From positions 1 through 34,032 of the forward strand of contig JABIUG010000525.1 of assembly GCA_018700655.1 (NCBI GenBank): DNA of 34,032 nt. Direction: 5' to 3'. The first letter of the stretch is position 1. The number at the start of each line of letters is the position of its first letter. The notes under the pieces are model-generated. The model was not told the DNA's origin and did not search any database. It was given only the letters and a program-made list of their open reading frames with translations. This stretch comes from Rhodospirillaceae bacterium. Its GTDB lineage: Bacteria > Pseudomonadota > Alphaproteobacteria > SP197. Shown one piece after another: positions 2-21,026 of the stretch. A program made the position numbers and the translations under genes.

Positions 2-1507
2 GTAGGATGTCGAGACCGAGACCCTGATGCGATGGCCCGCAGGGAATGACCACGCCATGTCATTGAGCAACACCTCGACGTCGACCGGCTGATCAACCGG
101 CATGTCGGTAATGTCTTCATGGTCGTCGCGATGGGTGAGATTATAAATCTGGTAGGTAACCCTCGCGGCAGTTTCATCGGGCGCGACATCAACCAGGCGA
201 ACGGCAATAAAGCCCTGAGGTTTGTCGATCGAGAGTTTCAGTTTGACAACCGGCTGGCCCATGAACTCGAACCGCTCGTCGAGCGGCTCTGTCTCGAAGA
301 CAAGAGAACGGCCGTCATCCTCACTCTGGTCGATCGCCAGGTCGGGGCTGGACCCGCCCAGGCCGTAAGGGCACCAATTGCCTGCCGCGACCCCAACCGA
401 CTGCCGTGGCTTGACGGTACGTGGCGCATTGCCATCCGACATCAGGGCCCAGGACCGCGAACCAACGTTGGGCGAGGGCCAGATCGCCTCGTCGACCCAA
501 CGTCCTTGCGTCATCTTGAGCATCGCGTCAGGCACGGTGGGTTCGCGCATCCAGACCCGGTACATCGGGTCATCCATGATCCCGTTGTCGACGCCTTTGA
601 GCCAGTGGTCCCACCAACGCAGGCTCTCCTGTAGCCAGCCGATCGCCGGGCCGGGAATTCCGATATGCGGGTACTTGTGGCCCCAGGGGCCGACCAGTCC
701 CTTGCGCGGGCCCTTCAGATGCTTGAGCAGACGCGGCACCGCGTTGGAATAACCGTCCTCCCAGCCGCCAACCGCGAAAACCGCGCAATCGATGTCGTCG
801 TAATTCTCGCAGACCGAGCCGTGCCTCCAATAGTCATCGCGCCGCTGGTGCTGAAGCCAGATGGTCGAGGCAACAGGTTCCCAGCCTTCCATCCGTTCCA
901 TCCACTGCTTGCGCCAGCCATCACCCTGGATCTCGGGATCACCGGGGCGGGCCATGAACTGGAAGAAACCTCCGCCCCAGAACCAGTTGTCGAGCGGAAT
1001 TGCGCCACCCATGAAATGCACGTCATCGGCATAACGGTCATCGGTCGAACAATGGGTGATGATCGCCTTGAGTGCCGGCGGTCGAAGCGCACCAACCTGC
1101 AGCCCGTTGAAACCGCCCCAGGAAATGCCGGTCATCCCGACGGTCCCCGAACACCAGCTCTGTTCTGCGAACCAGGCGATCGCGTCAAACCCGTCCTGCA
1201 GTTCCTGCCGGGTGTATTCGTCGGTGATCTGGCCTTCGGATTCGCCGGTGCCGCGAATATCGAGCCGGATGCATGCATAGCCATGGCCAGCCCACCAGCC
1301 GTGCATCGAATCGTCGCGCATGCGCGTGCCATCGCGCTTTCGGTAGGGAATGTATTCCAGGATCACCGGCACCGGATCATCTTCGGCGTCTTCGGGCATC
1401 CAGATCCGGGCCGACAGCCGCGTTCCATCAGGCATCGGAACCCAGAGATGTTCGATCTCGTGCACTTTGCGCGGGACGTCCGTCACGATTTTGAGTTCGT
1501 CTGCCAT
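2..1507 (-). CDS. CocE/NonD family hydrolase (S15 X-Pro dipeptidyl-peptidase-like), partial; C-terminus runs off the left edge
   Basis: Not in the ORF track because no stop lies in the window. My reverse-strand translation from the ATG at 1507 gives MADELKIVTDVPRKVHEIEHLWVPMPDGTRLSARIWMPEDAEDDPVPVILEYIPYRKRDGTR...GISWGGFNGLQ. This aligns residue by residue with the 672-aa ORF at 25085..27103. The frame is still open at position 2, where it reads ...AGHRIRVSVSTSY (paralogue: AGHRIAVSVSSTY). A GAAGGAAGG RBS lies upstream of the ATG. Confidence 0.85.
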   Translation of the reverse strand, partial: MADELKIVTDVPRKVHEIEHLWVPMPDGTRLSARIWMPEDAEDDPVPVILEYIPYRKRDGTRMRDDSMHGWWAGHGYACIRLDIRGTGESEGQITDEYTRQELQDGFDAIAWFAEQSWCSGTVGMTGISWGGFNGLQVGALRPPALKAIITHCSTDDRYADDVHFMGGAIPLDNWFWGGGFFQFMARPGDPEIQGDGWRKQWMERMEGWEPVASTIWLQHQRRDDYWRHGSVCENYDDIDCAVFAVGGWEDGYSNAVPRLLKHLKGPRKGLVGPWGHKYPHIGIPGPAIGWLQESLRWWDHWLKGVDNGIMDDPMYRVWMREPTVPDAMLKMTQGRWVDEAIWPSPNVGSRSWALMSDGNAPRTVKPRQSVGVAAGNWCPYGLGGSSPDLAIDQSEDDGRSLVFETEPLDERFEFMGQPVVKLKLSIDKPQGFIAVRLVDVAPDETAARVTYQIYNLTHRDDHEDITDMPVDQPVDVEVLLNDMAWSFPAGHRIRVSVSTSY

Positions 1508-2403: not shown

Positions 2404-2727
2404 TCAGGAGGCCTCAAGCCGTTCTGCCAGCTTGTCGAGCCGTTCCGCCAGGGCTTCGATCGACGACGCTCGCTTGCCGCTGCCGTTATCGGCCTTGGGT
2501 CCGCCGGCTTTCGGCGTTCCGCCTTCGCGCTGTTCCCAGAGCTCATCGGCCAGCAGCAGGCTCACCATCACCAGCAGCCGCTGATCACCGACATTGCCCA
2601 AAGCGCCGACCAGTTCCTGAACCTTGCTGTCGACATAGGAAGCAAGCCCGGCGATGCGTTCCTCTTCGCCATCGCCGCATGCCACCTGATAGCTGCGCCC
2701 GTGAATCTGGACATTGACCTGGGCCAT
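2404..2727 (-). CDS. zapA: cell division protein ZapA
   Basis: 107 aa. The N-terminus VNVQIHGRSYQVACGDGEEERIAGLASYVDSKVQEL and the following LLVMVSLLLADEL match the ZapA fold pattern. A GGGGAG RBS is present. The gene lies upstream of the 6S RNA and ygfA. Confidence 0.85.
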   Translation of the reverse strand: MAQVNVQIHGRSYQVACGDGEEERIAGLASYVDSKVQELVGALGNVGDQRLLVMVSLLLADELWEQREGGTPKAGGPKADNGSGKRASSIEALAERLDKLAERLEAS

Positions 2728-2730
2728 CGC

Positions 2731-2979
2731 CTAACTCCCCAGCACGGATTTGAGTTCGCCAATCACACCGTCGAGTCGCCCGCTGACGTCGATCACGCGC
2801 CCTTCAAGGTCCTTGTGGTCCTTTTTGGCGCTGTCGAGTGCGGTGCTCAAACGGCGATTCTCGCCTTCCAGTTCCTGCAAAGCTTCTCCGTCCGTCCCAT
2901 TGGACAAACGAGTCAGTGCCGCCTCCAGACGTGTGATCGCCTGGTCGAGCTTCGCGATGGCTTTATCCTCGGTGCTCAT
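2731..2979 (-). CDS. small coiled-coil protein (DUF4164-like), upstream partner of zapA
   Basis: The track ORF 2731..3324 is over-extended. The ATG at 2979 gives an 82-aa heptad-rich protein (MSTEDKAIAKLDQAITRLEAALTRL...). Its stop is 3 nt before the zapA start. The family name comes from memory of alphaproteobacterial zapA neighbourhoods. Confidence 0.6.
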   Translation of the reverse strand: MSTEDKAIAKLDQAITRLEAALTRLSNGTDGEALQELEGENRRLSTALDSAKKDHKDLEGRVIDVSGRLDGVIGELKSVLGS

Positions 2980-3178
2980 TGTCTGCCTTGGATCAATACC
3001 TTGCCGCCGGTTCCAAAGATAACGGCTTATCGACCTTGGATAAAGCGACTCTGGACAACTGTCGAATCGGAACGTTCTTGGGCCAACATGCCGGTTGACG
3101 CTCTGGGACGGCAAAGCCAAGGTGCGCCGGGATCGGATCAGGCCTTCTGGGGGCCTCCATTTGCCGGAGAAAACGGAC

Positions 3179-5170
3179 GTGAACGACAGCGCGACGGGCC
3201 AGGTTTCGGAACGTGCGATGGCCAACGCCATTCGCACCCTTGCAATGGATGCCGTACAGGCAGCCAAAAGCGGACACCCCGGCATGCCCATGGGCATGGC
3301 CGATGTCGCTACGGTTCTGTTCACCCGATATCTGAAATACGACCCGGCAGATCCCGCCTGGCCGGACCGCGACCGCTTCGTTCTCTCGGCAGGTCACGGC
3401 TCCATGCTGATCTATGCCCTGCTCCATCTCACCGGCTATGCCGACATGACGATGGACGAGATCCGCAATTTCCGTCAGCTCGGCAGCAAAACCGCCGGTC
3501 ATCCCGAATACGGCCATGCGGCAGGCATCGAGATGACCACCGGGCCATTGGGTCAGGGCGTCGCGACAGCCGTCGGCATGGCGCTGGCCGAACGCATACT
3601 CGCCGCCCGATTCGGTGACATCGTCGATCACGACACCTATGTCATCGCAGGTGACGGCTGCCTGATGGAAGGCGTCAGTCACGAAGCGGCCTCGCTCGCG
3701 GGTCATCTCAAGCTCAATCGCCTGATCGTGCTGTTTGACAACAATCAGATCTCGATCGACGGTCCGACCTCCCTTTCGGAGTCCGACGACACGCTGAAAC
3801 GTTTCGATGCGTATGGTTGGGCGACCGAGCGGGTCGACGGCCACGATCACGACGCCGTTGGCGCCGCCATCGAGCGCGCCAAGACAAGCGACAAACCAAG
3901 CCTGATCGCCTGCCGCACCGTGATCGGTTACGGCGCACCGACCAAGGAAGGCACCTCGGCAACCCACGGCGCGCCCCTGGGCGACGAAGAAATCGCCGGG
4001 ACCCGCGCCAAACTTGACTGGCCCTGGGAACCGTTTGTGATTCCCAACGATATTCTTTCGGCCTGGCGCGCTGCCGGTGGCCGGGGCGCCGCAACCCGCG
4101 CTTCCTGGGAGACCGCGCTGGCCGCACTTGACGCCGGCACCCGCGATGAGTTCACCCGCCGCATGGCAGGCGATGTCTCCGCATCGGCCCGCAAGGCGAC
4201 CGCCGACCACATTGCCGCCCTGATCGCCGAACCCAAGACAGTCGCAACACGCAAGGCCAGCGAACTGGCCCTTGAGGCGCTCACTGCCACCCTGCCCGAG
4301 ATGGTCGGCGGCTCGGCCGACCTCACCGGTTCCAACAACACACGCACCAAACCGATGAAAGACGTGGCTCCGGGTGACTATGACGGCTCCTACATCCGCT
4401 ACGGAGTGCGCGAACACGGTATGGCCGCCGCCATGTCTGGCATGGCGCTCCACGGCGGCATCATTCCCTTCGGCGGCACCTTCCTGGTGTTCACCGATTA
4501 CTGCCGCCCCTCGATTCGCCTGGCGGCACTCATGGGCCTGCGGGTTATCTATGTCATGACCCATGACTCGATCGGTCTGGGCGAAGATGGCCCGACCCAC
4601 CAACCGGTCGAACATCTCGCCAGCCTGCGTGTCATTCCCAACCTCAACGTCTTCCGTCCCGCCGATGTCGTCGAAACGGCAGAGTGCTGGGAGCTCGCCC
4701 TAGATGCCCGCAGCACGCCTTCGGTCATCGCACTGACGCGCCAGAACCTGCCGCAGGTCCGCACGGAAGCGGTCGACGGCAACCTCTGCGCCAAGGGTGC
4801 TTATGTCCTGCGTGACGCCGACGGGGACCATCAAGCCACAATCCTCGCCAGCGGCTCGGAAATCGAAATCGCCCTGGCCGCGCGCGACACCCTGCAGGCC
4901 GATAGTGTCGGCACCCGGGTAGTCTCCGTGCCCAGTTGGGAACTTTTCGCCCAACAGGATGACGCCTACCGCGCTGAGGTCGTCGACACTTCCAAGGCCC
5001 TGGTTGCGGTCGAGGCTGCTTCGACATTTGGCTGGTCACAACTGGTCGGTGACAAGGGCGGCGTCGTCGGCATGACCGGCTTTGGCGCTTCGGCACCGAT
5101 CAAGGCGCTTTATGAGAGCTTTGGCATCACACCCCAGGCGGTCGTCGCAGCAGTGCGCGAACGCCTCTAG
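3179..5170 (+). CDS. tkt: transketolase
   Basis: [35 protein letters not shown]; ThDP motif [13 protein letters not shown]; about 660 aa. I prefer the GTG at 3179, which is preceded by GGAGA with 8-nt spacing. The longest ORF starts at the TTG at 3095, in the same frame. Confidence 0.95.
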
Positions 5171-5265: not shown

Positions 5266-5984
5266 TTGCTGCCCGCTCTCCTCGTCCTCGCCTCGGCCCG
5301 CGCGGTGCTGGCCGATACGCTGGAGCCATTAACGGTAGCAGTTGGCCTTTCGCTTCCGCCCTATGTCATCGCCGAGGAACGGCGAGGCATGGAATACGAC
5401 ATTGTCCGTGAAGCTCTCGAGGCGGCCAGTTTCAAGATGGTCCCGATTTTCATGGCCTTCGGCGCCGTGCCCGAGGCAATCGCCGCCGGAGAGGTGGAGG
5501 CGGCCATGACCTTTGGCGCCGATACCGAGTTCGACGTCGCGCTTTCGGCGGTCCACATCGTTTACCACAATCAGGCCATGACGCTGGCGAGCAGCGGCCT
5601 TGCGATCGACCGGATCGGCGACCTCGAGGGCAAATCGATCCTCGCCTTTCAGAACGCCACGCTTTACCTGCCGGCCCTTACCGCGATGCCGTCGCCGATA
5701 ACCCGGACTATGCCGAAGTTGCCGAGCAATACCGCCAGAACCTCGCGCTCTTCACCGGCGAGGTTGAAGTCGCAGTTGCCGACATCAACATTTTCAACTG
5801 GTTCAGCCATGACAGCCGCGTCACATCTGCTTACGACGCCGATCACGCAATCTTCCCGCCGACGCCCTACCATGTCGCCTTCATCTCCGATGGCGCCCGC
5901 GATGCCTTCGATCAGGCGCTCGAAGCCATGAAGGCATCGGGTCGCTACGACGAGATCATCGCTGCCTATGGCGGTGTGCAATAG
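5266..5984 (+). pseudogene. periplasmic solute-binding protein (family-3 SBP-like), frameshifted
   Basis: The frame from the TTG at 5266 gives a signal-like N-terminus and SBP-like sequence up to ...GKSILAFQNATLYL. It then degenerates into S/P/T/R-rich text. The adjacent frame continues sensibly as AGPYRDAVADNPDYAEVAEQYRQNLALFTGEVEVAVADINIFNWF...ASGRYDEIIAAYGGVQ, ending at the stop at 5982-5984. This implies a single 1-nt indel near 5665-5672. Confidence 0.7.
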
Positions 5985-13689: not shown

Positions 13690-13692
13690 CCC

Positions 13693-14307
13693 CTGCCCGC
13701 CGGTCATCAGGCGGCGGAAAACCGCCTCTACCTCGTTTCACCTCCGGCGTTCGAGCCCGACGTCTTTGTCGACTCCCTTGCCGCGGCACTCGACGCCGGC
13801 GAAGTCGCATGCTTCCTGTTGGCGCTGGAAACCGCCGACGAGGATGTTTGGCGATGCGCCTGTGAGCATCTCGTTCCGCTCGTCCAGTCCCGCGATGTCG
13901 CCTTCCTCTTGAACGAACGCTCCGGGCTGGTTTGCGAATGTGGCGCCGATGGCGTTCATGTCGAGCGCCCGGCCAAGGCCCTTCGCAAGAACCTGCCGAC
14001 CGGTGCCATCCTTGGTGCGGGCTGTGTCCTGTCGCGCCACGATGCCATGCTGGCCGGAGAAGCAGGCGCCGATTATGTCGCCTTCGGGCCCTGGGATGAC
14101 GCTGCCAGAGAGCAACTCGCATGGTGGCAGGCGGTGATGGAACTTCCCTGCGTTGCCCTGGGCGGTCTGACGCTTGACGATGTTGCTGCTGCCGCAGTTG
14201 GAGCCGATTTCATCGCCTTGCAGGAGGCAGTCTGGAACCATGCCGAAGGTCCGGCAGCAGCAATTCGCGCGGCAATCGCTGCCGTGGACAACCCAGCGCC
14301 CCACTGA
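13693..14307 (+). CDS. thiamine-phosphate synthase (ThiE)-like protein; start codon non-canonical or unresolved
   Basis: The in-frame translation upstream of the first canonical start (TTG at 13819) reads ...AENRLYLVSPPAFEPDVFVDSLAAALDAGEVACF, which is a typical ThiE N-terminus. Downstream motifs are GADGVHV, ADYVAFGP and PCVALGG. The only start-like codon after the fba TAA is the CTG at 13693, preceded by AAGGAA. The conservative call is 13819..14307. Confidence 0.65.
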   Translation: MPAGHQAAENRLYLVSPPAFEPDVFVDSLAAALDAGEVACFLLALETADEDVWRCACEHLVPLVQSRDVAFLLNERSGLVCECGADGVHVERPAKALRKNLPTGAILGAGCVLSRHDAMLAGEAGADYVAFGPWDDAAREQLAWWQAVMELPCVALGGLTLDDVAAAAVGADFIALQEAVWNHAEGPAAAIRAAIAAVDNPAPH

Positions 14308-15800: not shown

Positions 15801-16898
15801 ATGACGCGTCACAACAACGCCGTGAACCACAACGAACCACGGGTCAGCCCGCTGGCCATGGTGGGTGTATGTCTGCTCGTCGCAGGCCTGATCCTGACGC
15901 CCCTCCAGGTGCATGCCCAGACCACGAGCCAAACGCTTCAGCCCTCGGTCGAGGTCAATCTCGACGTGCTTGATGCACTTGGCCCGCTACCGGCAACATC
16001 CGGGATCGACCTCTACGGCAGCACGCCGAGTGTAACCCAGCCCAACCTCTACGGCTCTTCGAGTCAAATTCCCGGCGCCGTTTCGGAAGACAGTGTCCTG
16101 CTTCTGCCCATTCCTAAGGGCGTGAACGCCGATACCGGCTCGGTCCTCCTGCTCGATGCACCCGCGACCACGGGCGACAGCGACTTCCAGATGCCCGAGC
16201 CCGAGGTTGCCGCCGCAACCCAGACAACCGCCGAGCCGGAGACAGACGTTTTCGATCCGGATGCCGCTCTCGATCCCGTCGCCATCGTCGTGCCCGAACC
16301 ACAGCCTGAGCCTGAGGTCATGGCTGAGACTGAAGTCTCCATCGAGCCGGAAGTTATTGCCGTTCCGGAGCCCGAACCCGAACCTGAAGTCATCGTGACG
16401 ACCACAGAGACAGAGGTCGCGGCGGCTTCTTTGGCGACCGACGACTCGAGCGACGATGCCTTCAACGAGATCGAGGAACTCCTCAGCGAGCCGGTCGACC
16501 CCGAAACGATTGATGTGCCCGAGCCGGCCATGACCATGGACGGCACCGACATCGCCGTGGTCAGCGCTGTCGACGCCGCAATGACCAGCGATGACATGCG
16601 GATTCTGTTCGATGGCGATAGTGATGAATTGAGCGATGCAGATCGCACCCTGCTTCTGGCTCTTGCCGGGCAGCTTGATGCCGAGCCCGACCAGCGGGTT
16701 CAGTTGCGCGCCTATGCTTCCAGCGAAGATGCCTCGCCCAGCGATGCCAGGCGCCTTGCGCTGTCACGCGCTCTGGCCGTTCGTGCCTTCCTGATCGAAA
16801 ACGATCTCCGCTCGACCCGCATCGACGTCAGGGCGCTGGGCGACAAGGCCGAAGACGGCCCGCTCGATCGCATCGATATCGTACTGATCGAGCGCTAG
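15801..16898 (+). CDS. OmpA-domain protein with N-terminal signal/anchor and a long acidic Pro/Glu-rich linker
   Basis: Hydrophobic N-terminus (LAMVGVCLLVAGLILTPLQVHAQ). About 200 aa are rich in D/E/P/T/V. The C-terminus LRAYASSEDASPSDARRLALSRALAVRAFLIENDLRSTRIDVRALGD matches the OmpA_C peptidoglycan-binding pattern. A GGGGAAAG RBS is present. Confidence 0.8.
   Translation: MTRHNNAVNHNEPRVSPLAMVGVCLLVAGLILTPLQVHAQTTSQTLQPSVEVNLDVLDALGPLPATSGIDLYGSTPSVTQPNLYGSSSQIPGAVSEDSVLLLPIPKGVNADTGSVLLLDAPATTGDSDFQMPEPEVAAATQTTAEPETDVFDPDAALDPVAIVVPEPQPEPEVMAETEVSIEPEVIAVPEPEPEPEVIVTTTETEVAAASLATDDSSDDAFNEIEELLSEPVDPETIDVPEPAMTMDGTDIAVVSAVDAAMTSDDMRILFDGDSDELSDADRTLLLALAGQLDAEPDQRVQLRAYASSEDASPSDARRLALSRALAVRAFLIENDLRSTRIDVRALGDKAEDGPLDRIDIVLIER
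16293..16395 (+). repeat. low-complexity CCNGAR (Pro-Glu) repeat tract inside the OmpA-domain gene
   Basis: Encodes PEPQPEPEVMAETEVSIEPEVIAVPEPEPEPEVIV. It consists of imperfect reiterations of GAGCC/GAACC/GAAGT units. Confidence 0.45.
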
Positions 16899-16914
16899 GA
16901 GTTCGTCAGCCCAC

Positions 16915-18066
16915 ATGACACGCCCCCACCCCTACCTGATCCGCATGGCGCTGTTTCTTGTCGCGGTCGGCGCGGTGGCCGTTGTTCTGCTCAGCACGCT
17001 GCTTGAGGCCTTTCGGGCCAATCCCGCACTCAATGGCCTAATCCTTGGCGTCCTGCTGCTTGGAATCCTCTATATCTTTCGTCAGGTTCAGCAACTCTAC
17101 CGCGAAGTGACCTGGATCGAGAGTTATCGTGCCGCCCTGCCCGGCGCGCCTGTTCCACCGCCACCGCACCTGCTGGCACCCATGGCCACGATGCTGGGTG
17201 AACGCCAGTCGCAGGGGCATCTCAGCTTATCGACCGCGTCGACCCGCTCGATGCTCGACACCATCGGCTCACGCCTCGATGAAGCCCGCGACATTTCGCG
17301 CTATCTGATCGGCCTGCTCATCTTTTTGGGGCTGCTCGGCACCTTCTGGGGCCTGATCAAGACGATTGGCGCCGTGAACGGCACGCTCCAGGGCCTGGAT
17401 GTCAGTGGCGGCCAGGATATTGCGACTCTGTTCGATACCCTGAAAGACGGGCTTGCCGCGCCGCTTTCAGGCATGGGCACGGCCTTCAGCTCGTCGCTCT
17501 TTGGCCTTTCGGGCTCGCTCGTCCTGGGTTTCCTCGATCTCCAGTCGGGCCAGGCGCAGAACCGTTTCTACAATGAGCTCGAAGAATGGTTGTCTTCCGT
17601 CACGCGCCTGCATTCGGGTTCCGGCCTGTCGCTCGAAGGCGAACAGTCGGTCCCGGCCTATGTCAGCGCCTTGCTTGAACAGACCGCCGACAGTCTCGAT
17701 CGCCTGCAACGCACCCTCTCGCGCGGCGAGGATACCCGCCGCGGCGCCGATCAGCAGATGGCCGCGCTGACTGACCGGCTCTCGACCCTGACTGACCAGA
17801 TGCATGCCGAGCAACAGCTCCTGATCAAACTGGTTGAAGGCCAATCGGACCTCAAACCCGTGATCGAGCGCCTTTCGGCCCTTCAGGGTGCCAGCAGCAT
17901 GGATGAAGCCAGCCGCGCACATCTTCGCAATCTCGATGTCGTGATGACCCGGCTGCTCGAAGAGACCGTTGCCGGGCGCGGCCAGCTTGCCGATGAAATC
18001 CGCTCGGAGATCAAACTTCTGGCACGCACTATTGCCGCCACCCGTGGGGCGGGTTCAGGGAACTGA
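16915..18066 (+). CDS. MotA/TolQ/ExbB-family proton-channel protein with about 170-aa C-terminal helical tail
   Basis: Four predicted TM segments. The channel-family signatures are FLGLLGTFWGLIKTIG and LSGMGTAFSSSLFGLSGSLVLGF. The tail is heptad-rich (LDRLQRTLSRGED...LTDRLSTLTDQMHAEQQLLIKLVE). Confidence 0.8.
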   Translation: MTRPHPYLIRMALFLVAVGAVAVVLLSTLLEAFRANPALNGLILGVLLLGILYIFRQVQQLYREVTWIESYRAALPGAPVPPPPHLLAPMATMLGERQSQGHLSLSTASTRSMLDTIGSRLDEARDISRYLIGLLIFLGLLGTFWGLIKTIGAVNGTLQGLDVSGGQDIATLFDTLKDGLAAPLSGMGTAFSSSLFGLSGSLVLGFLDLQSGQAQNRFYNELEEWLSSVTRLHSGSGLSLEGEQSVPAYVSALLEQTADSLDRLQRTLSRGEDTRRGADQQMAALTDRLSTLTDQMHAEQQLLIKLVEGQSDLKPVIERLSALQGASSMDEASRAHLRNLDVVMTRLLEETVAGRGQLADEIRSEIKLLARTIAATRGAGSGN

Positions 18067-18069
18067 TCG

Positions 18070-19599
18070 ATGGCCATTCGCACCCGGCGTCAGGTCTCCG
18101 GTGCCGACACCTGGGCCGGCTTTGTCGATGCCCTTTCGACCCTTCTGGTCGTTCTCATCTTCGCACTGGTCGTTTTCATGCTCGCCCAGTTCTTTCAGGG
18201 CATCGCACTTTCGGGCCGTGACGAGGCGCTCGCACGCCTCGAAACACAGGTCGCCGAGCTCGCTGACATGCTCGCTCTGGAACGCGACAGCAATGCCAGC
18301 ATGCGCCTGGAATTGACGCAGCTTTCGGCGGAGCTGCAACGCTCCACCGGCGCGCGCGACGATGCCGAACAGGCACTTGCCCTGCTTTCGGCCGAACGCG
18401 ACGGCCTTCTTGCCCGCCTGACGGCAACCGAGAACTACGCCGCCGACACCGGGTCCGCTCTCGATGCCGCCCAGACACGCCTCGACCTGCTGCAGGCCGA
18501 CCTCGACCGTGCCCTGGAAGATGTCACCGTCACCAAGGATACGCTTTCGCTAAAGCTGGCCGAAATCGCCAGCCTGCAGCGCGACATCGATGCCTTGGGC
18601 AACGTGCGTGACAATCTGGAAACCGAGATCGCGCGCATGGTGTTGATTCTCGAGCGGGCCCGCGCCCTGCAGGAATCCCTGGAGCTCGATCTCGAAACCT
18701 CGCTCACGGCAGAGGCTGATCTGGAAGAGTCACTTTCGGCCGGCCAGGAAGAGCTCGAGGCCGACCGTGCCAGGATAGAGGTCCTGCTTGCCGATCTGGG
18801 TGCCGAACGCGACCGCAGCATGGAACTGGTCGAGGAACTCTCGAGCGAAAACGAACGCACCCTGCTGGCACAGCGCGAGATCGAGGAACGTGACATCCGC
18901 CTCACCGAACTGGCGGAACTCGTGACCATGACGCAAGAGGAACGCGAGGCGGCCGAAGCGATTTCAGACCGGCGGCTGAACCAGATTGCCGTACTCAGCC
19001 AGCAACTCAGCGCATTACGCGACCAGATCGCAGCTCTGAACGAGGTACTCGATGCCTCCGAAGCGCAGGCCGAAGCCGACCAGGTCCAGATCGCCGATCT
19101 TGGATCACGGCTCAACGCCGCACTCGCCGCCAAAGTCCAGGAGCTTTCGCGCTACCGCAGCGAGTTCTTCGAGAAGCTGGTCGAGGTACTGGGCGAACGC
19201 AGCGACATCAAGGTCGTGGGCGACCGATTCGTCCTGCAATCCGAGCTGCTGTTCGAAAGTGGCAGCGCCGAAATATCCGATGAAGGCAAGACTGAACTGG
19301 TCAAGATCGCCGACCTCATCGTGGAACTGACACAGGAGATTCCCGCAGAGGTCAACTGGATCCTTCGGGTCGACGGCCACACCGACGCCGTTCCGATCTC
19401 GACTTTCCAGTTTCCGAGCAACTGGGAGCTTTCGACAGCGCGGGCGACTGCCGTCGTGCGTTACCTGATCGCCGGAGGTGTACCTGAAAACAGGTTGGCC
19501 GCAGCAGGCTTTGGCGAGCACCAGCCGCTCGACACGTCTGACGATGAAGGCGCCCTGCGGCGCAACCGCCGGATCGAGTTCAAGCTGACCGAGCAATAG
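18070..19599 (+). CDS. MotB-like protein: N-terminal TM with conserved Asp, about 330-aa coiled coil, C-terminal OmpA/MotB peptidoglycan-binding domain
   Basis: WAGFVDALSTLLVVLIFALVVF resembles the MotB YADFMTAMMAFFL plug/TM region, with the Asp codon at 18127-18129. A long E/L/A/R-rich heptad region follows. The C-terminus is VDGHTDAVPI...NWELSTARATAVVRYLIAGGVPENRLAAAGFGEHQPL...NRRIEFKL. The gene starts 3 nt after the MotA-like stop. Confidence 0.85.
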   Translation: MAIRTRRQVSGADTWAGFVDALSTLLVVLIFALVVFMLAQFFQGIALSGRDEALARLETQVAELADMLALERDSNASMRLELTQLSAELQRSTGARDDAEQALALLSAERDGLLARLTATENYAADTGSALDAAQTRLDLLQADLDRALEDVTVTKDTLSLKLAEIASLQRDIDALGNVRDNLETEIARMVLILERARALQESLELDLETSLTAEADLEESLSAGQEELEADRARIEVLLADLGAERDRSMELVEELSSENERTLLAQREIEERDIRLTELAELVTMTQEEREAAEAISDRRLNQIAVLSQQLSALRDQIAALNEVLDASEAQAEADQVQIADLGSRLNAALAAKVQELSRYRSEFFEKLVEVLGERSDIKVVGDRFVLQSELLFESGSAEISDEGKTELVKIADLIVELTQEIPAEVNWILRVDGHTDAVPISTFQFPSNWELSTARATAVVRYLIAGGVPENRLAAAGFGEHQPLDTSDDEGALRRNRRIEFKLTEQ

Positions 19600-20141: not shown

Positions 20142-21026
20142 CTAGGCGCGCGCCGTCACGATCCACATTGCGGCCTTAAGAGCGACACCTTTGCCGTCAT
20201 GGCGCGGCGCAATCGCTTCGCGGACTTCGTTCTCGACGGCTTTCTTGGTCGCGTCGTCCGCATCTGCAATCAGCCTTGAGGCAGGGCCGAAATAGGTCAG
20301 GAAATTCGTGACCTCATCCAGCGTCCCCGGATTGCTCATGAACGGTTCATGGCTATCGATGGCAATGTCTTGAAAACCCGCTTCGCCCAGGATGCCACGG
20401 ACCCGATCGGGGTCAGAAAAGGCGAAGGGCCCCGGCGCAAGCGGATCCATCGGCTCAGGCGCGGGAACATGGCGCAGGGCGACATCGCGTGGCAGCAGCA
20501 CCCATTCGTTCTTGTCGAGCGGCTGCCAACAGATGAAACCCAGTCTCCCGTCATCCTTCAGACCTTTCCGGATGTTGGCAAAAGCCTCGACACGGTTGGT
20601 GAAAAACATCACGCCATAACGCGAAAACACCAGATCGGCGGCACCTGCCTCGAAGCGATAGTTTGACGCATCTGCATTGATGAAGGCTGTGTGAGCCAAG
20701 CCAAGCGCAGCGGCGCGTTCTCCGGCACGGCGCAGCATCGGTATCGAGATATCCACGCCCAGAAGACGGCCCATGGGACCAACCCGCTGCGCCAGTTCCA
20801 GCGAGGTCGCACCGCAACCACAGCCGATGTCGATCACGGTTTCGCCCGGGCGGACCCCGACCTTATCCATCACCACTAGACCGGCAGGTTCCAGCACGGG
20901 ATCAAGTTTTTCCTGGGCATCGACCCATTTGTCACCGGTGTCGCCGTTCCAGTATTCGATCTGGTCGCTGTTGGGGCCGTCGGCCTTGAGGTCGCTCATG
21001 TCATCATCCGTGTTGTGTTCGCCCAT
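20142..21026 (-). CDS. class I SAM-dependent methyltransferase
   Basis: 294 aa. Motif I is VIDIGCGCGATSLELA, followed by LLGVDIS and DLVFSRYGVMFF. Confidence 0.85.
   Translation of the reverse strand: MGEHNTDDDMSDLKADGPNSDQIEYWNGDTGDKWVDAQEKLDPVLEPAGLVVMDKVGVRPGETVIDIGCGCGATSLELAQRVGPMGRLLGVDISIPMLRRAGERAAALGLAHTAFINADASNYRFEAGAADLVFSRYGVMFFTNRVEAFANIRKGLKDDGRLGFICWQPLDKNEWVLLPRDVALRHVPAPEPMDPLAPGPFAFSDPDRVRGILGEAGFQDIAIDSHEPFMSNPGTLDEVTNFLTYFGPASRLIADADDATKKAVENEVREAIAPRHDGKGVALKAAMWIVTARA

What the first reader, a model, noticed from the sequence alone, without database searches (positions are those of the whole stretch)
16915..19599. Orphan stator-like pair: MotA/ExbB channel with helical tail and MotB-like protein with about 330-aa coiled coil and OmpA domain, outside any flagellar, Tol or Ton context
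The two genes are separated by 3 nt. The first has the TM3/TM4 signatures of MotA/TolQ/ExbB proton channels plus a heptad-rich cytoplasmic tail of about 170 aa. The second has a MotB-type N-terminal TM helix with the conserved channel Asp (FVDALSTLL, GAT at 18127-18129). An unusually long coiled coil then separates that helix from a canonical OmpA/MotB peptidoglycan-binding domain. No flagellar, TolA/TolB/Pal, TonB or ExbD genes are in the window. The neighbours are efp, a suhB-like gene and a GNAT gene. Ion-driven 5:2-type motors with extended tails are known from flagella, Tol-Pal, Ton, gliding motors and the Zorya defence system (ZorAB). This pair does not fit any of these by context. The energised output, and what the coiled coil reaches, are unknown.
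Basis: partly seen in the sequence, partly recalled or inferred. Interest (0 to 1): 0.65.

Follow-up and report, generated by a model that had tools for sequence, protein, structure and literature searches.

The report
Uncharacterised alphaproteobacterial ion motor, long periplasmic shaft
These genes encode a widespread but unstudied alphaproteobacterial relative of the proton-driven flagellar, Tol/Ton and Zorya motors, and its cell-wall anchor sits at the end of a rigid rod whose length differs between species in whole seven-residue steps.

Summary
Two intact genes lie 3 nt apart. A (383 aa) has the MotA/ExbB/ZorA channel fold and a helical tail. B (509 aa) has a MotB-type helix with Asp20, a rod of about 320 aa, and a MotB-type peptidoglycan-binding domain.

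It is not an orphan pair.
- A third gene, U (15801-16898), ends 16 nt upstream. It encodes a secreted OmpA-domain protein, is conserved in about two thirds of related loci, and appears co-transcribed with A.
- A and B are adjacent in 84 of 84 loci. They usually follow efp and suhB across Rhodospirillales, Acetobacterales, Kiloniellales and Rhizobiaceae.
- B passes NCBIfam PRK09039. A belongs to a family of at least 875 clusters at 50% identity.
- It is not a flagellar stator, TolQR, ExbBD or Zorya. Sinorhizobium meliloti has a separate tolQ.
- I found no paper that characterises the system.

One new finding: the distance from the channel Asp motif to the wall-binding domain ranges from 169 to 584 aa. 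It is 4 mod 7 in 154 of 179 homologues, and most exceptions are +3 or +4. The rod is therefore one continuous coiled coil, 20-80 nm long if extended.

Best reading: a distinct, vertically inherited, wall-anchored 5:2-type motor with an envelope function. Its output is unknown.

The parts
15801..16898 (+). Gene U (365 aa): a secreted protein with an OmpA-like C-terminal domain. It is the first gene of the unit.
   Evidence: ORF. Pfam OmpA 4.6e-10, residues 269-349. Its stop TAG at 16896-16898 is 16 nt before the A start. A homologue lies directly upstream of A in about 57 of 84 related loci. A metatranscriptome contig at 16829-16991 spans the U-A junction.
15801..15920 (+). Sec-type signal peptide of U (residues 1-40; predicted cleavage VHA|Q).
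   Evidence: One hydrophobic segment at residues 15-33. Homologues end the segment in AxA|Q-type sites. This is read from the sequence; no signal-peptide predictor was run.
15948..15974 (+). Conserved short motif VEVNLDVLD near the mature N-terminus of U.
   Evidence: The pattern [VILF]x[VIL][DNE][LQE]x[VA][LI] occurs 5-15 residues after the signal peptide in at least 23 of 57 U homologues.
15975..16550 (+). Acidic, Pro/Glu/Ala/Thr-rich linker of U, probably disordered, including PEPEPEV runs.
   Evidence: Composition of residues 61-250: P 26, E 24, A 20, T 19, V 19, D 18 of 190. The linker varies in length and sequence between loci.
16551..16895 (+). OmpA-like domain of U. By eye it keeps the Asp and Arg of the usual peptidoglycan-binding motif.
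   Evidence: Pfam OmpA. NCBIfam gives weak matches to YiaD, Pal and YfiB-type anchors. The residue assignment is my own reading of the sequence.
16915..18066 (+). Gene A (383 aa): the channel or pentamer subunit of a MotA/ExbB/TolQ/ZorA-type motor.
   Evidence: PADLOC ZorA1 2.9e-14. Pfam MotA_ExbB 17.4 bits, below the gathering score of 22.9. The AF2 model (pLDDT 65.7) matches ExbB 5sv0 (E 4e-4, probability 1.0), TolQ and ZorA 8vvn in Foldseek.
16948..17079 (+). Two N-terminal transmembrane helices of A (residues 12-30 and 37-55).
   Evidence: Hydropathy 2.73 and 2.17. With TM3 and TM4 this gives a four-helix, N-in topology like MotA rather than the three helices of ExbB, TolQ or ZorA. The topology is inferred from charge distribution.
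17293..17364 (+). TM3 of A with the motif GLLGTFWG. Thr143 (17341-17343) corresponds to ExbB Thr148 and TolQ Thr145.
   Evidence: hhalign and pairwise alignments to E. coli ExbB and TolQ. Thr143 is invariant in 16 homologues. This block scores 0.8-0.89 in a family-wide conservation scan.
17467..17538 (+). TM4 of A (GMGTAFSSSLFGLSGSLVLGF), including Ser194 (17494-17496).
   Evidence: This block scores 0.74-0.90 family-wide. Ser192 and Ser194 are invariant. The equivalence of Ser194 to ExbB Thr181 and ZorA Ser184 is my own reading, not a tool alignment.
17539..18063 (+). Cytoplasmic helical tail of A (residues 209-383).
   Evidence: AF2 helices to 235, 246-326 and 331-380. Heptad score z = 3.1. 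The first 20 residues (AQNRFYxxLExWL) are conserved family-wide and the rest is not. The S. meliloti tail aligns only to residue 322.
18070..19599 (+). Gene B (509 aa): the axle or dimer subunit, a member of NCBIfam PRK09039.
   Evidence: NF006543 408.3 bits against a cut-off of 305. B lies directly downstream of A in 84 of 84 loci.
18112..18195 (+). Transmembrane helix of B with the motif W-[AP]-G-F-V-D-A-L. The channel Asp20 is at 18127-18129.
   Evidence: Asp20 is invariant and sits in the motif in every full-length B of the loci. It aligns with ExbD Asp25 (FIDVMLVLL).
18196..19164 (+). Periplasmic coiled-coil rod of B (residues about 43-365): a conserved N-proximal segment, a variable middle, and a conserved C-proximal segment.
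   Evidence: A single heptad frame with z = 9.5. AF2 gives helices 15-151, 156-259 and 264-374. Conservation map. The spacing between the WxGFVD and YRSEFF motifs is 4 mod 7 in 154 of 179 homologues, range 169-584 aa.
19165..19596 (+). MotB-type peptidoglycan-binding domain of B, with the motifs GHTD, NWELSxARA and NRRIE.
   Evidence: Pfam OmpA 3.6e-18. phmmer against PDB: MotS 3.6e-17 and MotB 1.1e-15. Foldseek: MotS 9ljm with TM-score 0.83 on the target, then H. pylori MotB and PomB.

Best explanation
U, A and B encode a distinct, vertically inherited alphaproteobacterial member of the ion-driven 5:2 motor superfamily, probably with a cell-envelope function.

Proposed mechanism:
- Five A subunits form a ring in the inner membrane around the two transmembrane helices of a B dimer.
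- Protons pass from the periplasm through Thr143 and Ser194 of A to Asp20 of B. This flow turns the A ring relative to B.
- B is held to the cell wall by two MotB-type peptidoglycan-binding domains. These sit at the far end of a two-stranded coiled-coil shaft that is continuous from the membrane to the binding domain.
- The shaft carries the reaction torque or tension between the motor and the wall. This would explain why its heptad register is kept while its length varies four-fold.
- The A ring carries a short helical bundle into the cytoplasm.
- U is a secreted, wall-binding accessory protein with a conserved N-terminal docking motif. It is present in many but not all lineages.

Shown here: the genes, their domains, the fold of A, the conserved channel residues, the type of wall-binding domain, the heptad continuity and quantised length of the rod, the conserved gene order, expression in the sea, and non-membership of the flagellar, Tol, Ton and Zorya systems.

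Inferred: the 5:2 stoichiometry, proton use, rotation, which part turns, the mechanical role of the shaft, and the envelope function.
For: Fold of A:
- Foldseek places the model with ExbB, TolQ and ZorA at probability 1.0.
- PADLOC gives ZorA 2.9e-14 for A and ZorB3 8.5e-23 for B.

Channel residues:
- A Thr143 aligns with ExbB Thr148 and TolQ Thr145.
- B Asp20 aligns with ExbD Asp25.
- Both are invariant, and TM3 and TM4 are the most conserved parts of A family-wide.

Wall-binding domain of B:
- It is MotS/MotB-like by sequence and fold and keeps the GHTD, NWELSxARA and NRRIE motifs.

Rod of B:
- One heptad frame over about 315 residues, z = 9.5.
- Spacing is 4 mod 7 in 154 of 179 sequences and in 35 of 54 distinct spacings (binomial 2.8e-17). 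Exceptions are almost all +3 or +4.

Family, context and expression:
- A-B adjacency in 84 of 84 loci and efp-suhB synteny.
- At least 597 species matches, all of the best 80 from Alphaproteobacteria.
- 875 clusters with E <= 1e-30.
- Only housekeeping neighbours and no defence genes.
- Metatranscriptome contigs cover U, the U-A junction and A.
Against: - No complex was predicted and no experiment exists, so stoichiometry, ion flow and rotation are carried over by homology.
- A scores below Pfam's gathering threshold. Profile searches against PDB sequences found no motor protein.
- The A model has only moderate confidence (pLDDT 65.7).
- A continuous rod of 20-80 nm is far longer than the roughly 9 nm from the inner membrane to the wall quoted for E. 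coli (PMC11946911). A simple perpendicular anchor therefore does not explain it.
- The AF2 monomer model of B folds the rod into three roughly equal helices. If that is real, it would give a bundle of about 16 nm instead.
- Heptad quantisation could come partly from slippage of 21-nt repeats, which are visible in some homologues, rather than from selection.
- U is absent from about a quarter of loci, and the distal A tail is not conserved. Neither can be a universal output.
Confidence: 0.6

Rival explanations
1. This would be a Tol/Ton-like force transducer in which the B dimer is the moving part. The A ring is held still and B turns or is pulled. The long shaft then works like TolA, TonB or GldM and delivers work to the wall or beyond. 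U would be the periplasmic partner that the shaft engages.
For: - The periplasmic parts are the conserved ones. Both ends of the B rod and its wall-binding domain are conserved family-wide, while the distal A tail is not.
- The rod is much longer than an anchor needs.
- The gene order U-A-B resembles tonB-exbB-exbD orders (from my own knowledge).
- U has Pro-Glu runs like TonB and a conserved N-terminal box.
- The TM3 motif of A is of the ExbB/TolQ type.
Against: - B ends in a peptidoglycan-binding domain of the stator (MotB/MotS) type. Such a domain normally fixes the axle.
- U has a cleavable signal peptide rather than a TonB/TolA-type membrane anchor.
- U is missing from about 25 of 84 loci.
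- Rod length is not constant, as a periplasm-spanning ruler would be.
Confidence: 0.2
2. This would be a passive inner-membrane-to-wall tether or periplasmic scaffold. The channel would be a relic and no work would be done.
For: - The rod and the wall-binding domain could on their own act as a spacer or scaffold.
- Conserved islands inside the rod, such as RDRSxELE...ERTxLAQ, could be binding sites.
Against: - Asp20 of B and Thr143 and Ser194 of A are invariant.
- TM3 and TM4 are the most conserved segments of A across a family of at least 875 clusters. A relic channel would not be expected to show this.
- A and B are never found apart in 84 loci.
Confidence: 0.1
3. This would be a Zorya-like anti-phage system, either a new subtype or one whose effectors lie elsewhere in the genome.
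For: - The best profile matches of A and B in any library are ZorA and ZorB models.
- NCBIfam gives weak ZorA_4 and ZorA_2 matches.
- A has a cytoplasmic helical tail, as ZorA does.
Against: - NCBIfam ZorA scores are 20.7 and 15.3 bits against cut-offs of 500 and 100.
- The PADLOC matches cover only the transmembrane core and part of the tail.
- The tail is about 175 aa, against about 500 aa in ZorA (PMC11946911).
- No ZorC, D, E, F or G gene and no other defence gene is nearby.
- The locus is fixed next to efp and suhB in hundreds of species. Defence islands are patchy by comparison.
- ZorB has no long rod.
Confidence: 0.06
4. This would be a diverged flagellar stator paralogue, as the public name 'flagellar motor protein MotA' implies.
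For: - Public records give A and B the names MotA and MotB.
- A appears to have four transmembrane helices, as MotA does.
- The wall-binding domain of B is closest to MotS and MotB.
Against: - A matches no NCBIfam MotA model.
- hhalign to E. coli MotA gives a probability of 8%.
- PomA is only a weak Foldseek match, at probability 0.63.
- The cytoplasmic loop between TM2 and TM3 is about 70 aa, too short for the torque-generating domain described in PMC12505986.
- No flagellar gene is in the window or in the conserved neighbourhood.
- A rod of 140-550 aa has no counterpart in MotB.
Confidence: 0.04

Closest known systems
ZorAB, the motor of the Zorya anti-phage system (PMC11946911; PDB 8qyd, 8vvn)
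   Same: - It gives the best sequence-profile match for the transmembrane core of A and for the C-terminal part of B.
- The ring subunit carries a cytoplasmic helical tail.
- The axle subunit has the conserved Asp and a dimeric peptidoglycan-binding domain.
- It has no MotB-type plug.
   Different: - ZorA has three transmembrane helices and a tail of about 500 aa (70 nm). A appears to have four helices and a tail of about 175 aa.
- ZorB has a short linker. B has a rod of 140-550 aa.
- Zorya needs ZorC/D, ZorE or ZorF/G and sits in defence islands. This unit has none of these and is a fixed part of the core genome.
- In effect the long coiled coil is on the opposite side of the membrane.
Flagellar stators MotAB, PomAB and MotPS
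   Same: - A four-helix topology for the ring subunit (inferred).
- The B helix motif around the Asp.
- The wall-binding domain of B is closest to MotS and MotB in sequence and fold.
- Gene order A then B, with a very short gap.
   Different: - A has no torque-generating cytoplasmic domain and matches no MotA model.
- There are no flagellar neighbours.
- A heptad-continuous rod replaces the plug and linker.
ExbBD-TonB and TolQR-TolA-Pal
   Same: - The fold of A is closest to ExbB and TolQ in Foldseek.
- The TM3 motif GL(L/F)GT(F/V)WG is shared.
- There is a long helical element in the periplasm, as in TolA.
- There is an OmpA-type wall-binding partner, as with Pal.
   Different: - In this system the axle protein itself carries the rod and the wall-binding domain.
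- There is no TonB/TolA-type membrane-anchored transducer, and no TolB, CpoB or YbgC.
- S. meliloti has its own tolQ elsewhere on the same replicon.
GldLM/PorLM, the type 9 secretion and gliding motor
   Same: The dimeric axle subunit extends a long rigid structure across the periplasm (from my own knowledge of the published structures).
   Different: - B has a coiled coil and an OmpA domain rather than GldM domains.
- Pfam gave no GldL or GldM match.
- GldLM is a Bacteroidota system.
NCBIfam PRK09039 (NF006542-NF006546), 'peptidoglycan -binding protein'
   Same: - B passes the curated cut-off of NF006543.
- The S. meliloti orthologue passes NF006544 over its full length with 692 bits.
- This is the family to which B belongs.
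   Different: - The family is a naming model only and no function is attached to it.
- Four of the five models are 342-350 aa long. The window protein has about 170 extra rod residues.

Membership tests
5:2 ion-driven motor superfamily (MotA/ExbB/TolQ/ZorA ring plus MotB/ExbD/TolR/ZorB axle) | The ring subunit has the fold of the two pore-lining helices extended into the cytoplasm. | tested here: met
   Foldseek matches ExbB, TolQ and ZorA at probability 1.0 and E down to 4e-4. The model has moderate confidence, pLDDT 65.7.
5:2 ion-driven motor superfamily | A conserved Asp in the single transmembrane helix of the axle subunit. | tested here: met
   Asp20 is invariant and aligns with ExbD Asp25.
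5:2 ion-driven motor superfamily | Conserved Thr or Ser in the pore-lining helices of the ring subunit. | tested here: met
   Thr143 aligns with ExbB Thr148 and TolQ Thr145. Ser194 is invariant, but its equivalence to ExbB Thr181 is by eye only.
5:2 ion-driven motor superfamily | The two genes are adjacent, ring subunit first. | tested here: met
   84 of 84 loci.
5:2 ion-driven motor superfamily | A5B2 stoichiometry and ion-driven rotation. | not testable with these tools
   No multimer prediction or experiment was available.
Pfam MotA_ExbB (PF01618) | Score at or above the gathering threshold of 22.9 bits. | tested here: not met
   17.4 bits for the window protein. The S. meliloti orthologue just passes with 23.9 bits.
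Flagellar stator MotAB/PomAB | MotA-type sequence, including the large cytoplasmic torque-generating domain. | tested here: not met
   No NCBIfam MotA model was matched. hhalign to E. coli MotA gives 8% probability. The loop between TM2 and TM3 is about 70 aa.
Flagellar stator MotAB/PomAB | MotB-type peptidoglycan-binding domain. | tested here: met
   MotS 3.6e-17. TM-score 0.8 to MotS, MotB and PomB.
Flagellar stator MotAB/PomAB | Flagellar or chemotaxis gene context. | tested here: not met
   None in the window or in the conserved neighbourhood.
Zorya (ZorAB with effectors) | ZorA family score above the curated cut-off. | tested here: not met
   NCBIfam ZorA_4 gives 20.7 bits against 500 and ZorA_2 gives 15.3 against 100. 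PADLOC matches are partial, covering model positions 107-255 of 683.
Zorya (ZorAB with effectors) | Adjacent ZorC/ZorD, ZorE or ZorF/ZorG genes. | tested here: not met
   No PADLOC match in the neighbours except a generic methyltransferase domain. Pfam finds only housekeeping neighbours.
Zorya (ZorAB with effectors) | A ZorA tail of several hundred residues. | tested here: not met
   The tail is about 175 aa, against residues 223-729 in E. coli ZorA (PMC11946911).
Tol-Pal (TolQRA, TolB, Pal) | TolR-type axle, TolA transducer, and tolB-pal-cpoB context. | tested here: not met
   B carries an OmpA domain. No Tol genes are in the window. A separate tolQ lies in the S. meliloti replicon that carries the orthologous pair.
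ExbBD-TonB | ExbD-type axle and a TonB partner with a membrane anchor. | tested here: not met
   No TonB or ExbD match. U has a cleavable signal peptide rather than an anchor.
NCBIfam PRK09039 'peptidoglycan -binding protein' | Score above the curated cut-off of one of NF006542-NF006546. | tested here: met
   NF006543 408.3 bits against 305, and NF006544 368.7 against 362.

The most novel reading that the evidence does not exclude
This would be a new functional class of proton-driven 5:2 motor, present in much of the Alphaproteobacteria. Its working element would be a rigid, register-locked periplasmic coiled-coil shaft of 20-80 nm between the motor and the cell wall. The machine would apply or sense torque or tension on the wall for envelope growth, integrity or division. 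It would be neither a flagellar stator, nor a Tol/Ton transducer, nor a defence sensor.
Probability: 0.3. Interest if true: 0.8.

Novelty: new variant of a known kind. Interest (0 to 1): 0.6.

Why it matters
Each known member of the 5:2 motor superfamily powers a different process: swimming, nutrient import, outer-membrane constriction, gliding, secretion or phage defence. Recent surveys state that more remain to be found (PMC12204202, PMC12505986).

This family is large and vertically inherited in a major bacterial class that includes rhizobia and Azospirillum. It is expressed in the ocean and, as far as I could find, unstudied.

Its architecture is the reverse of Zorya, with a short tail inside the cell and a long shaft outside. 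The heptad-quantised shaft offers a simple experiment: insertions of 7 residues against insertions of 3, 4 or 5. That would test whether torque or tension is carried through a periplasmic coiled coil.

Public records label the A subunit a flagellar motor protein, and that label is probably wrong.

Tried and rejected
Literature searches:
- Eight full-text searches covered ZorA/ZorB with Alphaproteobacteria, PRK09039, Rgs proteins, MotAB-like or stator-like terms, model-organism names, SMc0399x locus tags, MotA/TolQ/ExbB with Tn-seq, and rotary-motor surveys. Two further attempts failed on term syntax.
- I also searched within eleven papers.
- None of this found a description of the family.

The Rgs lead:
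- I suspected the S. meliloti Rgs polar-growth proteins included this pair. They do not.
- Only the neighbouring Sel1 protein matches the description of RgsF.
- No Sel1 homologue lies in the other 84 loci, so I treat that adjacency as local.

The SMc03993 lead:
- SMc03993 is listed once as a ChvI-bound fragment.
- I could not verify that it is the A orthologue.

Analyses that gave nothing useful:
- Sequence and profile searches of A against PDB sequences found no motor protein. Only the fold search did.
- The promoter and terminator scan was no better than chance.
- Tandem Repeats Finder found no repeat in the window's rod.

The folded model of B:
- The AF2 monomer folds the rod into three helices.
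- I rejected this as the preferred model because steps of a single heptad between homologues fit one continuous parallel coiled coil better. It is not excluded.

The P0323 lead:
- The Sel1-rod-OmpA fusion protein P0323 looked like a functional link.
- It is a single case on a mobile element with no A gene beside it.

Full report
**1. What is in the sequence**

A spans 16915-18066 (383 aa) and B spans 18070-19599 (509 aa). A ends with TGA at 18064-18066. A 3-nt spacer follows and B starts with ATG at 18070. Asp20 of B is GAT at 18127-18129.

It ends 16 nt before A and has a GGAG between the two genes. U carries an OmpA domain (Pfam 4.6e-10).

The window is identical to contigs of a marine metagenome-assembled genome (GCA_018665205.1). 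Its other genes are housekeeping:
- transketolase, GAPDH, PGK and class I aldolase;
- a thiE-like gene, efp and an inositol monophosphatase upstream;
- a GNAT acetyltransferase, a methyltransferase, a DUF3604 protein, MlrC, a peptidase and enoyl-CoA hydratase downstream.

No flagellar, Tol, Ton or defence gene is present.

**2. Protein A**

A has strongly hydrophobic segments at residues 12-30, 37-55 and 127-148. I read the Gly/Ser-rich stretch 185-208 as the fourth transmembrane helix. The charge distribution fits an N-in, four-helix topology with a cytoplasmic loop of about 70 aa and a cytoplasmic tail of about 175 aa.

Sequence matches are weak:
- Pfam MotA_ExbB scores 17.4 bits, below its threshold of 22.9.
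- No NCBIfam MotA, ExbB or TolQ model matches. Only ZorA subfamily models match, far below their cut-offs.
- The best profile matches are PADLOC ZorA models, at 2.9e-14.
- Sequence searches against PDB chains found nothing significant.

The fold is clearer. An AlphaFold2 model built on 16 homologues (pLDDT 65.7) matches ExbB, TolQ and ZorA in Foldseek with probability 1.0 (best E 4e-4). PomA is only a weak match.

Alignments to the E. coli proteins place the motif GLLGTFWG of A on GLFGTVWG of ExbB and TolQ. Thr143 therefore corresponds to ExbB Thr148 and TolQ Thr145.

I built a family-wide alignment of 115 representatives at no more than 50% mutual identity. In it TM3, TM4 (GMGTAFSSSLFGLxGSL) and the first 20 tail residues are the conserved parts. 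The rest of the tail is not conserved. The tail is predicted helical (246-326 and 331-380) and is modestly heptad-rich (z = 3.1).

**3. Protein B**

The N-terminus has the motif W-[AP]-G-[FWY]-V-D-A-L, which is present in every full-length homologue. Asp20 is invariant and aligns with ExbD Asp25.

The C-terminal 145 residues are a peptidoglycan-binding domain of the MotB type:
- phmmer against PDB gives MotS 3.6e-17 and MotB 1.1e-15.
- Foldseek gives a TM-score of about 0.8 to MotS, H. pylori MotB and PomB.
- The usual GHTD, NWELSxARA and NRRIE motifs are invariant.

B passes the curated cut-off of NCBIfam NF006543, PRK09039 'peptidoglycan -binding protein' (408 bits against 305).

Between the helix and the domain lie about 320 residues that AlphaFold2 predicts as helix. 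They keep one heptad frame from about residue 43 to about 357. The a/d hydrophobicity score in a single frame is 9.5 standard deviations above shuffles.

**4. The rod is quantised**

Homologues of B differ greatly in length, from 332 to 702 aa in the loci. I measured the distance from the WxGFVD motif to the YRSEFF motif that opens the wall-binding domain.
- The distance ranges from 169 to 584 residues.
- It is 4 mod 7 in 154 of 179 distinct sequences.
- Counting each distinct spacing once, 35 of 54 fall in that class, where about 8 are expected (binomial 2.8e-17).
- The exceptions fall almost entirely in classes 0 and 1, that is +3 and +4. These are the classical stammer and stutter of coiled coils. 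Only 5 of 179 lie elsewhere.
- The window protein has a spacing of 347 and S. meliloti has 179.

The length varies in the middle of the rod. About 55 residues next to the membrane and about 65 residues next to the wall-binding domain are conserved. Some long versions contain obvious tandem units of 7 or 14 aa.

The rod therefore behaves as one continuous coiled coil from the membrane to the wall-binding domain. If extended, it would be about 20-80 nm long, and about 47 nm here.

The AlphaFold2 monomer folds the rod into three helices of similar length. I regard that as less likely, because single-heptad steps would not keep a three-helix zigzag matched. I cannot exclude it.

**5. Protein U**

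U has four parts:
- a Sec-type signal peptide, with AxA|Q sites in U and its homologues;
- a short conserved motif (VxVDLSVLD) 5-15 residues after the cleavage site, in at least 23 of 57 homologues;
- a long acidic Pro/Glu-rich linker of variable length;
- an OmpA-like domain.

Metatranscriptome contigs identical to the window cover U, the U-A junction (16829-16991) and A. The genes are therefore expressed in the sea, and U and A appear to be co-transcribed. Such libraries can contain DNA, so this is not conclusive.

**6. Distribution and context**

- In a library of 1.84 billion representatives at 50% identity, 875 clusters match at E <= 1e-30 and 2263 at E <= 1e-10.
The best 80 are all Alphaproteobacteria: Rhodospirillales, Azospirillum, Acetobacterales, Kiloniellales, Defluviicoccus, Elsterales, Dongiaceae and some Hyphomicrobiales.
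- B follows A in 84 of 84 loci. efp and suhB lie upstream in most. U lies between suhB and A in about 57 loci. It is absent from about 25, and in many of these suhB directly precedes A.
- An S. meliloti chromosome filed as a plasmid carries suhB, then A (368 aa, 'MotA/TolQ/ExbB proton channel family protein'), then B (342 aa, 'peptidoglycan -binding protein', NF006544 at 692 bits).
- The same replicon has an annotated tolQ about 39 kb away. The pair is therefore not that organism's Tol motor.

**7. What it is not**

It is not a flagellar stator:
- A matches no MotA model, and hhalign to E. coli MotA gives 8% probability.
- The cytoplasmic loop is too short for a torque-generating domain.
- There is no flagellar context.

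It is not TolQR or ExbBD:
- B carries a MotB-type wall-binding domain.
- There is no TolA, TolB, Pal or TonB.
- A separate tolQ exists in S. meliloti.

It is not Zorya:
- Scores are far below the curated cut-offs.
- The tail is about 175 aa rather than about 500 aa.
- There are no effector genes.
- The locus has a core-genome position that is stable across orders (PMC11946911).

It shares features with several families. The pore motif is of the ExbB/TolQ/ZorA type. The helix count and the wall-binding domain are MotA/MotB-like. The tail is Zorya-like but short. The periplasmic rod has no counterpart in any of them.

**8. How it most likely works**

By homology, five A subunits surround two B helices. 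Protons pass by way of Thr143 and Ser194 of A and Asp20 of B, and the flow turns A relative to B. The invariance of these residues and the high conservation of TM3 and TM4 argue that the channel is functional.

B is fixed to peptidoglycan at the end of the shaft. I infer that the shaft transmits the reaction torque or tension between the motor and the wall. This would explain why its register is preserved while its length drifts.

Two points remain open:
- Which part moves is unknown. It could be the A ring with its cytoplasmic bundle, or the B shaft in the manner of TolA or GldM.
- What is acted on is unknown. The periplasmic parts are more conserved than the distal A tail. That leans towards a periplasmic, envelope-related output, but it is only a lean.

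The excess length of the rod over the membrane-to-wall distance is unexplained.

**9. Literature**

I found no paper that describes this family.
- Two recent surveys of MotAB relatives and of Tol/Ton transducers do not mention it. Both say uncharacterised 5:2 motors remain (PMC12505986, PMC12204202).
- The S. meliloti Rgs study does not include the pair.
- A ChvI-bound fragment inside 'SMc03993' lies at roughly the corresponding position on the chromosome. I could not confirm that it is the same gene.

**10. Verdict**

- It is a stator-like motor outside the known contexts, with an unknown output.
- It is not an orphan. It is a catalogued, widespread, three-gene (here) alphaproteobacterial system.
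- The heptad-quantised shaft is a new, testable feature.
- I rate it a new variant of a known kind, with interest 0.6.

Noticed in passing
window 13690-14307 (+): Homology of a thiE-like gene (thiamine phosphate synthase) begins at about 13722, directly after the aldolase stop and in the same frame. The first ATG, GTG or TTG in that frame is only at 13819. Public gene calls place a 167-aa gene on the opposite strand instead. This could be a non-canonical start, read-through or a mis-call.
   Followed up: partly
L089 8001-10670 (protein P0323): An 889-aa protein has six Sel1 repeats fused to a B-like rod and OmpA domain (60% identical to the window's B over the C-terminal 63%). It sits on a mobile element with a TrwC relaxase and IS66/IS240 transposases. 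No A gene lies beside it.
   Followed up: partly
L086 4430-9069 (Sinorhizobium meliloti): The orthologous A-B pair lies next to suhB and a periplasmic Sel1-repeat protein that fits the description of RgsF (SMc03995), an essential polar-growth factor (PMC7327166). No Sel1 homologue is present in the other 84 loci.
   Followed up: partly
alignment A2 (proteins P0314 and P0335): Long-rod homologues of B contain tandem 14-aa (TTLAERExELxxTR) or 7-aa (TALDETT) units. Rod length therefore grows at least partly by duplication of whole heptads.
   Followed up: no
window 20142-21026 (-): The class I SAM-dependent methyltransferase downstream gives a partial PADLOC match to 'mad2' (7.4e-22, methyltransferase domain only). 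NCBIfam shows only generic UbiE/ArsM-like similarity below the cut-offs. I regard it as not defence-related.
   Followed up: partly
window 119-634, 665-1531, 2701-3618, 5266-5931 (+): Several ORFs of 170-305 aa at the left end of the window have no Pfam match at E <= 1e-5. I did not examine whether they are real genes.
   Followed up: no
window 18145-18185: Tandem Repeats Finder reports two copies of a 21-nt unit (85% match) inside the transmembrane helix of B (LVVLIFALVVF). It probably reflects the repetitive hydrophobic sequence.
   Followed up: no
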